Of a DNA stretch of 20,792 nt, positions 7,768 to 7,856 are shown piece after piece (within the stretch, counting starts at the first letter, position 1; every line of letters starts with the position of its first letter). Made by a program: the position numbers and the translations under genes. The notes beneath the pieces are model-generated. The model had not been told where the DNA came from. It was given only the letters and a program-made list of their open reading frames with translations, and made no database searches. This stretch comes from Octopus sinensis (taxonomy: Eukaryota), in NCBI RefSeq assembly GCF_006345805.1, contig NW_021823923.1, forward strand, positions 1 to 20,792, read 5' to 3'.

Positions 7768-7856
7768 TTTTAGTACAATCGTTTCATACAAAGACAGGCT
7801 TTATTAAAAGTTGCAAAATTGCAGCATATAACGTGTCCCGTACTCATCAGCTAAAA
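7768..7856 (-). ncRNA. Type I hammerhead ribozyme, family A (minimal stem III, long stem II)
   Basis: Minus strand reads TTTTAG-CTGATGA-GTACGGGACA...TGTCTTTGTAT-GAAA-CGATTG-TA-CTAAAA. Stem I TTTTAG/CTAAAA, intact core, GUA cleavage triplet (cut between 7774 and 7773). ACGAUUGU is self-complementary with G-U pairs. Confidence 0.82.

What the first reader, a model, noticed from the sequence alone, without database searches (positions are those of the whole stretch)
7768..7856. Second, distinct hammerhead family with a 2-bp stem III and an unusually long stem II
Seen: intact core, 6-bp stem I, a ~58-nt stem II domain with an internal TGCAA/TTGCA hairpin, and stem III of only 2 bp. ACGAUUGU pairs fully with a second copy of itself using two G-U pairs, which works only in the CUGAUGA-reading polarity. 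Known: minimal hammerheads of Penelope-like elements have palindromic stem III/loop 3 and cleave as dimers. Inference: an obligate-dimer ribozyme from a different PLE-related family than the 13-kb one.
Basis: partly seen in the sequence, partly recalled or inferred. Interest (0 to 1): 0.75.

Follow-up and report, generated by a model that had tools for sequence, protein, structure and literature searches.

The report
Long-armed hammerhead of Hydra retrotransposon
This is an intact hammerhead (self-cutting RNA) motif at the 3' end of a young, high-copy Penelope-like jumping gene of the Hydra type, in what is likely an octopus genome; it is predicted to cut mainly when two copies pair, and its unusually long second arm is the majority form among about 20,000 such motifs in this genome.

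Summary
Confirmed. The minus strand 7856->7768 holds a complete type I hammerhead: 6-bp stem I, CUGAUGA, 58-nt stem II, GAAA, stem III AC/GU around GAUU, cut after GUA (7774). It lies in the terminal repeat (pLTR) of a 4.6-kb Hydra-clade Penelope-like element (RT + C-terminal GIY-YIG). The window holds a truncated copy plus its inverted partner in a (TA)n tract. The genome has 1,107 exact-core copies (control 0). Full-length copies carry two same-strand hammerheads about 4.6 kb apart. Across divergent families, stem I, the base of stem II, the apical hairpin and the stem III palindrome all covary. A palindromic short stem III is the known norm for these elements. 'Obligate' dimer is too strong: a published 2-bp-stem-III hammerhead cuts weakly as a monomer. 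The unusual part is the 44-65-nt stem II rod, against 9-23 nt in published Hydra hammerheads; here it outnumbers short-armed motifs about 9:1, and Rfam misses it. Cleavage was not tested, and genomic copies do not end at the cut site. This scan already noted the same thing on other DNA of this and other genomes. New variant of a known kind.

The parts
7768..7856 (-). Type I hammerhead motif in the pLTR of a Hydra-clade Penelope-like element
7851..7856 (-). Stem I, 5' strand (UUUUAG)
   Evidence: sequence; covariation
7844..7850 (-). Core CUGAUGA
7786..7843 (-). 58-nt stem II rod: 5-bp base, bulge, 4 bp, loosely paired middle, apical hairpin
7812..7823 (-). Apical hairpin UGCAA/UUGCA; pair C-G / U-G / U-A across copies, no C-A among those parsed
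   Evidence: 67 / 27 / 31 of 130 distinct copies, 5 unparsed
7782..7785 (-). Core GAAA
7775..7782 (-). Self-complementary stem III/loop III ACGAUUGU (2-bp hairpin as monomer, predicted 8-bp duplex as dimer)
7773..7774 (-). Predicted cleavage site, after GUA
   Evidence: hammerhead consensus; position; cleavage untested
7768..7773 (-). Stem I, 3' strand (CUAAAA)
   Evidence: sequence
7739..8096 (-). 5'-truncated copy of the element's 3' end, tail-less, ending in (TA)n about 35 nt past the cut site; 95% identical to a full-length copy
8086..8311 (+). Inverted, more truncated partner copy starting inside stem II (lacks CUGAUGA), carrying the ~120-nt tail, ending in (TA)n
8356..8522 (+). Second, older insertion of the same family (86%); CUGAUGA at 8407 kept but GAAAC reduced to GAAC, so the core is broken; a tiny inverted tail piece lies at about 8334-8357
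8306..8340 (.). (TA)n target tract between the two insertions; further TA-rich tracts flank at about 7720-7738 and 8519-8723

Best explanation
The motif is the type I hammerhead in the terminal repeat (pLTR) of a young Hydra-clade Penelope-like retrotransposon, and it likely self-cleaves efficiently only when two copies pair their ACGAUUGU palindromes into an 8-bp stem III. Shown: the motif, its place in a 4.6-kb RT-endonuclease element, two same-strand copies per full-length element, and covariation of stems I, II and III. Inferred: in a pLTR-ORF-pLTR or tandem read-through transcript the two copies (or copies on two transcripts) form a double hammerhead, probably helped by the element's protein, and cut about 209 nt upstream of the ATG and about 1.57 kb past the stop, releasing a unit-length RNA. 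Inferred from genomic ends: this cut does not make the 3' end of inserted copies. These end about 36 or about 156 nt past the cut site, at UAUAAU and AAUAUA words that could anneal to nicked (TA)n, so RNA whose 3' hammerhead is uncut is what gets copied. Dimer dependence would thus act as a brake that keeps the 3' ribozyme from removing the priming sites. The long stem II is a structured rod kept by selection. It most likely stays compatible with catalysis because a normal 4-5-bp helix sits next to the core, and its distal hairpin most likely serves as a handle for the element's protein (least supported step).
For: Copy number: 1,107 exact-core copies, control 0. Linked ORF with RWK, DKT, YRDD, CxCX5C, VIY...YIG without CCHH, CxxC and CxH, matching the Hydra definition (PMC8557442 section 11). 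Same-strand hammerhead pairs 4,570-4,759 nt apart in 14 of 20 loci chosen for holding the RT 5' part. Cut site to ATG 209 nt, unit 4,650 nt. Among 24 sequence clusters: stem I 103 of 120 positions paired vs shuffle mean 61.7, max 79; first five stem II pairs kept in 24, 22, 23, 20, 20 of 24; loop III self-complementary in 23 of 24 vs shuffled mean 8.9, max 17; stem II median fold z -2.5 (9 of the 24 clusters came from a search that forced the palindrome). With loop III left free, 93 of the first 100 listed matches are self-complementary in ten different loop sequences (counted by eye; one truncated row read). On 16 related sequences, 12 of 26 pairs show two-sided change, 0 of 500 shuffles reach that, slid controls give 2-4. 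Double-hammerhead fold -30.0 vs two monomer hammerhead folds at -9.7 each. 3' ends: of 123 aligned copies 55 stop at +33 to +41, 54 at +154 to +163, 14 run on into the ORF; at most 4 of 130 have another end. Literature: dimer cleavage (PMC4209133, PMC7229834); protein-assisted PLE hammerhead, uncut RNA as template, internal RT starts defining the tail (PMC11167929).
Against: No cleavage data. The public runs are contigs only, with RNA status guessed, and show no pile-up of ends. The isolated 89-mer is predicted to misfold: MFE -13.9 vs -9.7 for the hammerhead fold, with the cut site buried in a GUAUGA/UUGUAC hairpin; the best two-strand fold (-36.5) is not the double hammerhead (-30.0). RNAalifold does not predict stem III. 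No fossil of cleavage: 3 copies start exactly at the cut site vs 2 one base upstream. Pairing of two motifs 4.6 kb apart is assumed. Related sequences can beat the shuffle control without structure. The role of the long arm is untested, and short-armed Hydra hammerheads exist in the same genome, so the arm is not needed by the clade as a whole.
Confidence: 0.68

Rival explanations
1. Active hammerhead that cuts adequately as a monomer, with the long stem II (or an internal loop of it docking on an extended stem I) making up for the weak stem III; the palindrome only boosts the rate.
For: A 2-bp-stem-III hammerhead cuts 22% in one hour as a monomer, and invertebrate retrozyme hammerheads cut as monomers (PMC7229834 sections 14-15). 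Stem II pairing drops at position 6 (13 of 24) and stem I at position 6 (13 of 24), and several families can extend stem I past an internal loop, the geometry of a loop 1-loop 2 contact.
Against: The palindrome is kept through many different sequences, which implies selection for intermolecular pairing. The stem I extension is not consistent among the 28 sequences folded. A fast monomer would cut off the priming sites that all aligned insertions carry.
Confidence: 0.2
2. The fold is kept as a structural or protein-binding cis-signal for retrotransposition; cleavage is negligible in vivo.
For: In the Anolis PAc element, catalytic mutants do not affect insertion in vitro and no RNA-seq ends were found at the cut site (PMC11167929). 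No cut-site fossils here. Predicted misfolding.
Against: The complete catalytic core and an H at position 17 occur with covarying stems in families whose RTs are only about 46% identical. This is partly circular, as the search demanded the core. The PAc hammerhead does cut when its protein is present.
Confidence: 0.1
3. Chance or decayed sequence with no RNA function.
For: Fold z -0.17 for the 89-mer; no Rfam hit. This particular genomic copy is a truncated dead-end insertion.
Against: 20,239 pattern matches vs 300 control; covariation; fixed position in the pLTR.
Confidence: 0.02

Closest known systems
Hammerheads of Hydra-clade Penelope-like elements (Craig et al. 2021, PMC8557442, File S2; includes Hydra-1_Obim of Octopus bimaculoides)
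   Same: Type I hammerhead near the 3' end; palindromic stem III; G-U as first stem II pair in several; host element with RWK, DKT, CxCX5C, no CCHH; (TA)n target.
   Different: Published Hydra stem II domains are 9-23 nt (loop 2 of 3-10 nt; my reading of the table); here 58-60 nt. The element is about 4.6 kb vs 'generally <3 kb', has Asn-rich inserts, a 1.5-kb 3' UTR and a ~120-nt tail vs 30-40 bp. It is not Hydra-1_Obim, whose short-armed motif is seen separately in this genome (C1:117059604).
Minimal hammerheads of metazoan PLEs (Cervera and de la Pena 2014, PMC4209133)
   Same: Sit in pLTRs, thousands of solo copies, opposite-strand pairs nearby, proposed dimers, palindromic helix III when present.
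   Different: Keeps a 2-bp stem III with a tetraloop and a 6-bp stem I; helix II there is 7-8 bp, not a 58-nt rod.
Dimer-cleaving type I hammerheads of newt/axolotl satellite retrozymes (PMC7229834)
   Same: 1-2-bp helix III with tetraloop; weak monomer, strong dimer.
   Different: Those are 330-350-bp non-coding tandem repeats with short stem II and a loop 1-loop 2 contact; this one belongs to an autonomous element, though related long-armed families do form ~535-bp and ~400-bp tandem arrays.
PLE-X1_sMoe hammerhead of a spike moss (PMC8557442 File S2)
   Same: A PLE hammerhead with a long stem II (9-bp stems around a 34-nt loop), flagged as deviating from canonical.
   Different: Plant, endonuclease-less, rDNA-targeting element; shows that a long stem II is not without precedent.

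Membership tests
Type I hammerhead ribozyme | Core CUGANGA, GAAA and UH triplet in order | tested here: met
   1,107 genome copies, control 0
Type I hammerhead ribozyme | Three helices, stem I open-ended, supported by covariation | tested here: met
   stem III only 2 bp and not predicted by RNAalifold
Type I hammerhead ribozyme | Loop 1-loop 2 tertiary contact | tested here: inconclusive
   both stems lose pairing at position 6; stem I extension inconsistent
Type I hammerhead ribozyme | Self-cleavage after the UH triplet | not testable with these tools
   contig-only runs; no cut-site fossils
Type I hammerhead ribozyme | Match to an Rfam hammerhead model | tested here: not met
   no hammerhead family among 137 matches at E<=1 or 3 matches at E<=10 locally; the 13-kb motif is missed as well
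Dimer-cleaving hammerheads | Short stem III with self-complementary stem/loop | tested here: met
Dimer-cleaving hammerheads | A second same-strand copy available in one transcript | tested here: met
   14 of 20 long loci have pairs ~4.6 kb apart; not met for the window copy itself, which is alone on its strand
Dimer-cleaving hammerheads | Dimer much faster than monomer | not testable with these tools
   folding energies only
Hydra-clade PLE | Single ORF, RT followed by C-terminal GIY-YIG endonuclease | tested here: met
   every copy inspected is frameshifted somewhere, so the single ORF is inferred from overlapping pieces; Pfam gave no hit
Hydra-clade PLE | RWK and DKT motifs | tested here: met
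   IRRIRWKTY and PADKTG
Hydra-clade PLE | CxCX5C linker, no CCHH, CxxC and CxH around the conserved E and N | tested here: met
   CKCRIKSKC, VIYKC...YIGC, CQLC, CVH (one linker C is R in copy L084)
Hydra-clade PLE | Insertion into (TA)n; pLTR, inverted truncated partner, optional tail | tested here: met
Hydra-clade PLE | Placement in the Hydra clade on an RT tree | not tested
   only motif match and by-eye comparison with Fig. S7 rows; 40% identity to an Argonauta protein with the same motifs
Naiad-clade PLE | N-terminal endonuclease, DKA, no canonical hammerhead | tested here: not met
   endonuclease is C-terminal, DKT, hammerhead present
Non-LTR retrozyme | Non-coding tandem repeats each with a type I hammerhead | tested here: not met
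   this family is coding and mostly solo or inverted; related families do form such arrays

The most novel reading that the evidence does not exclude
A cephalopod lineage of Hydra elements has turned stem II into a 45-65-nt structured arm that binds the element's own RT-endonuclease and licenses dimer cleavage, making a protein-gated, dimer-gated ribozyme switch that decides whether a transcript is processed or kept whole as template. About 20,000 such loci, invisible to standard descriptors, would make it the dominant hammerhead form of this genome.
Probability: 0.2. Interest if true: 0.68.

Novelty: new variant of a known kind. Interest (0 to 1): 0.42.

Why it matters
What PLE hammerheads do is an open question (PMC8557442 discussion; PMC11167929). 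This family is young (94-99% identity among copies), has full-length copies and natural covarying variants, so it is a good test system. The long arm shows that fixed-size descriptors and Rfam models undercount genomic hammerheads: 20,239 long-armed vs 2,475 short-armed pattern matches here (controls 300 and 206). The pairing of a PLE with a dimer-type hammerhead is known, so the surprise is moderate.

Tried and rejected
Rfam: no hammerhead hit. Pfam: nothing on the ORF pieces. Expression: no RNA holder is listed on record; contigs of runs guessed to be RNA cover the element and span the cut site, with no end pile-up and no splice joint; this says nothing on cleavage or expression. Fossil test for 5' ends at the cut site: 4 matches, 3 true truncations vs 5 matches, 2 true truncations one base upstream: no excess. 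Extended stem I / tertiary contact: no consistent fold in 28 sequences. The alternative hairpin GUAYGA/UUGUAC that buries the cut site exists in the GUAC-type families but not in others, so I did not treat it as a general switch. ORF for the 13-kb family: none linked in 20 loci (PLE-like hits in 3 loci were 2-5 kb away and not shared). Not in print: searches 'octopus + hammerhead ribozyme', 'cephalopod + Penelope + ribozyme', 'hammerhead + long stem II + retrotransposon' (the phrase 'long stem II' occurred in none of the 15 listed) and searches showed no description of long-armed cephalopod hammerheads; the library lacks most subscription papers. A paper on dimer cleavage of small PLE hammerheads (Lunse et al., RNA Biology, about 2017) is recalled only and was not seen.

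Full report
Observation. On the minus strand the stretch reads stem I UUUUAG (7856-7851), CUGAUGA (7850-7844), a 58-nt stem II (7843-7786), GAAA (7785-7782), stem III A-U and C-G around GAUU, GUA with the predicted cut after 7774, and stem I CUAAAA (7773-7768). The stem III 8-mer pairs with itself fully (-5.8 kcal/mol); its reverse complement does not (+0.3); the 2-bp hairpin costs +2.4. The 89-mer does not fold better than shuffles (z -0.17), and Rfam lists no hammerhead in the window.

Surroundings. The motif is part of a 5'-truncated repeat (7739-8096, minus) joined head to head to a shorter inverted copy (8086-8311, plus) that starts inside stem II and carries an extra ~120 nt; both ends run into (TA)n. 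A second, older copy (8356-8522, 86%) with a broken GAAA lies next to it. The window encodes no part of the protein.

Genome. The genome is 2.72 Gb; source names of the closest proteins say Octopus, so it is likely an octopus. The DNA search gave 1,823 candidates; the 40 scored are 96-100% identical. The exact-core pattern has 1,107 matches, control 0. [quoted passage not shown] Of 20 loci picked for holding the RT 5' part, 14 have two same-strand hammerheads 4,570-4,759 nt apart and one has a pair 1,754 nt apart. In L084 the 5' cut site lies 209 nt before the ATG and the 3' one 1,569 nt after the stop. The protein has RWK, DKT, YRDD, CxCX5C, no CCHH, and CxxC and CxH around E and N: the definition of the Hydra clade in Craig et al. 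2021 (PMC8557442; I saw passages, sections 6 and 11, and supplement parts 1-2 and search hits). No tree was built. All copies inspected have frameshifts.

Is the structure selected? With stem II of 41-66 nt and loop III free, the genome has 20,239 matches vs 300 control; with stem II of 7-31 nt, 2,475 vs 206. So long arms outnumber short ones about 9:1 after background; motifs with other loop III sizes are not counted. Among the first 100 listed long-armed matches, 93 have a self-complementary loop III in ten different sequences (ATAT, GATC, GATT, ACGT, TGCA, AATT, GTAT, ATGT, GCGT, GGCC, plus AGTT once); 7 do not (by eye; about 14% expected for random loops). I fetched 40 loci chosen by eye as family representatives; only one of the seven non-palindromic rows was among them. 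Clustering all 228 motif matches in my loci gave 24 clusters: stem I 103 of 120 positions paired (shuffle mean 61.7, max 79), first five stem II pairs kept in 20-24 of 24, palindrome 23 of 24 (shuffled halves mean 8.9, max 17; 9 clusters came from a search that forced it, 14 of the other 15 have it), stem II fold z median -2.5, with 4 clusters near zero. On 16 alignable relatives, 12 of 26 named pairs change on both sides, no shuffle of 500 reaches this, slid controls give 2-4; stem I, basal stem II and the apical hairpin all contribute. In the window's family group the apical pair is C-G in 67, U-A in 31, U-G in 27 and unparsed in 5 of 130 distinct copies. Relatedness inflates such scores, but the signal spans families whose RTs are 46-84% identical. 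Hydra-type ORF pieces were found beside long-armed motifs in 7 of the 40 representative loci (L099-L101, L142-L145), plus one distant hit in L154; the rest are short truncated or non-coding copies.

Mechanism. Shown: intact core, covarying stems, two copies per full element. Inferred: dimer-favoured cleavage. The double-hammerhead fold scores -30.0 against 2 x -9.7 for monomer hammerheads, but inactive folds score better in both states (-13.9 and -36.5), so help from the protein or from co-transcriptional folding is probably needed; the Anolis PLE hammerhead cuts only with its protein (PMC11167929; passages and second part of the main text). 'Obligate' is too strong: axolotl HHR_Amex2, with the same 2-bp stem III plus tetraloop, cuts 22% in an hour alone and far more as a dimer (PMC7229834; passages and sections 14-15). 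Genomic 3' ends lie past the cut site: of 123 aligned copies, 55 at +33 to +41, 54 at +154 to +163, 14 continuing into the ORF (that script would drop copies ending at the cut site, but one search leaves at most 4 of 130 unclassified; many loci were picked by similarity over this region). Both ends coincide with TA-like words in the element. This fits reverse transcription primed internally on RNA whose 3' hammerhead is uncut, as reported for PAc, although PAc initiates without homology to the target. 5' ends show no excess at the cut site (3 vs 2). Public runs are contigs only and cannot test cleavage.

Comparison with what is known. Hammerheads in PLE pLTRs with palindromic helix III and proposed dimer cleavage are known (PMC4209133; parts 1-2 of 4 read; PMC3088659, passages). 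Published Hydra hammerheads have palindromic stem III and short stem II (File S2). A long stem II occurs in one spike-moss PLE in that table. A 2026 preprint derives animal retrozymes from PLE pLTRs (10.64898/2026.07.22.740005; part 1 of 5 read; its supplements are closed), which fits the ~535-bp and ~400-bp tandem arrays of related long-armed families. My seven literature searches found no description of the long-armed cephalopod form; figures and supplements of PMC4209133 were not seen and may hold long-armed examples. Earlier AI notes of this scan report the same reading on other DNA; I had reached it before looking, and they are not evidence.

The 13-kb family. It has a 26-nt stem II, another stem III and no real DNA match to the element; 3,152 candidates, 89-95% identity, inverted partners and TA ends, but no linked ORF in 20 loci. 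It is a different, probably non-autonomous family.

Verdict. Real, selected, and filed: a hammerhead of a Hydra-clade PLE. The dimer feature is ordinary for its kind; the long, covarying stem II, dominant in this genome, is the new variant. Interest 0.42.

Noticed in passing
window 13082-13767 (minus): Tandem of two ~327-bp units, each with a type I hammerhead (26-nt stem II, cut after AUA); high-copy family with inverted partners and TA ends, no linked ORF found; most genomic copies read TTGGGACCGA where the window has TTGGGACCAA.
   Followed up: partly
G000:C1:57906999-57910359 (L116); C1:4297863-4299124 (L149); C1:122755272-122759593; C1:105634457-105636603: Retrozyme-like tandem arrays (~535, ~400, ~550 and ~353 bp units) of hammerhead-bearing repeats, some with a central inversion like PLE insertions.
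   Followed up: partly
L084:4559-6128; window 8032-8096: The element has a ~1.5-kb 3' UTR with an internal ~55-65-nt direct repeat about 157 nt apart, and long Asn-rich inserts between RT and endonuclease.
   Followed up: no
P0002; loose ends at L084:3691-3805 in runs X3, X7, X11: An Octopus vulgaris protein annotated as adhesion GPCR G6-like begins with ~150 aa 89% identical to this element's Asn-rich region: exonised element or gene-model artefact.
   Followed up: no
window 3148-3523, 5799-6216, 13740-14201, 17026-17447, 18149-18594, 19164-19521, 20333-20564: Seven or more copies of a SINE-like dispersed repeat; a weak tRNA-like Rfam match at 18895-18964.
   Followed up: no
G000:C1:121853692-121853736: A copy of the window's family with most of stem II deleted but the core intact: a natural short-arm variant.
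   Followed up: no
window 7844-7853 (minus): UUAGCUGA, across stem I and the core, is also self-complementary and drives the best predicted, inactive dimer; the same holds for UCGGCUGA in sister families.
   Followed up: no
L108-L111, L116 vs L050, L105-L107: Families with unrelated basal stem II share a UGUAA...UUACA apical hairpin, a candidate protein-binding site; other families have UUAUUC...GGAAU instead.
   Followed up: partly
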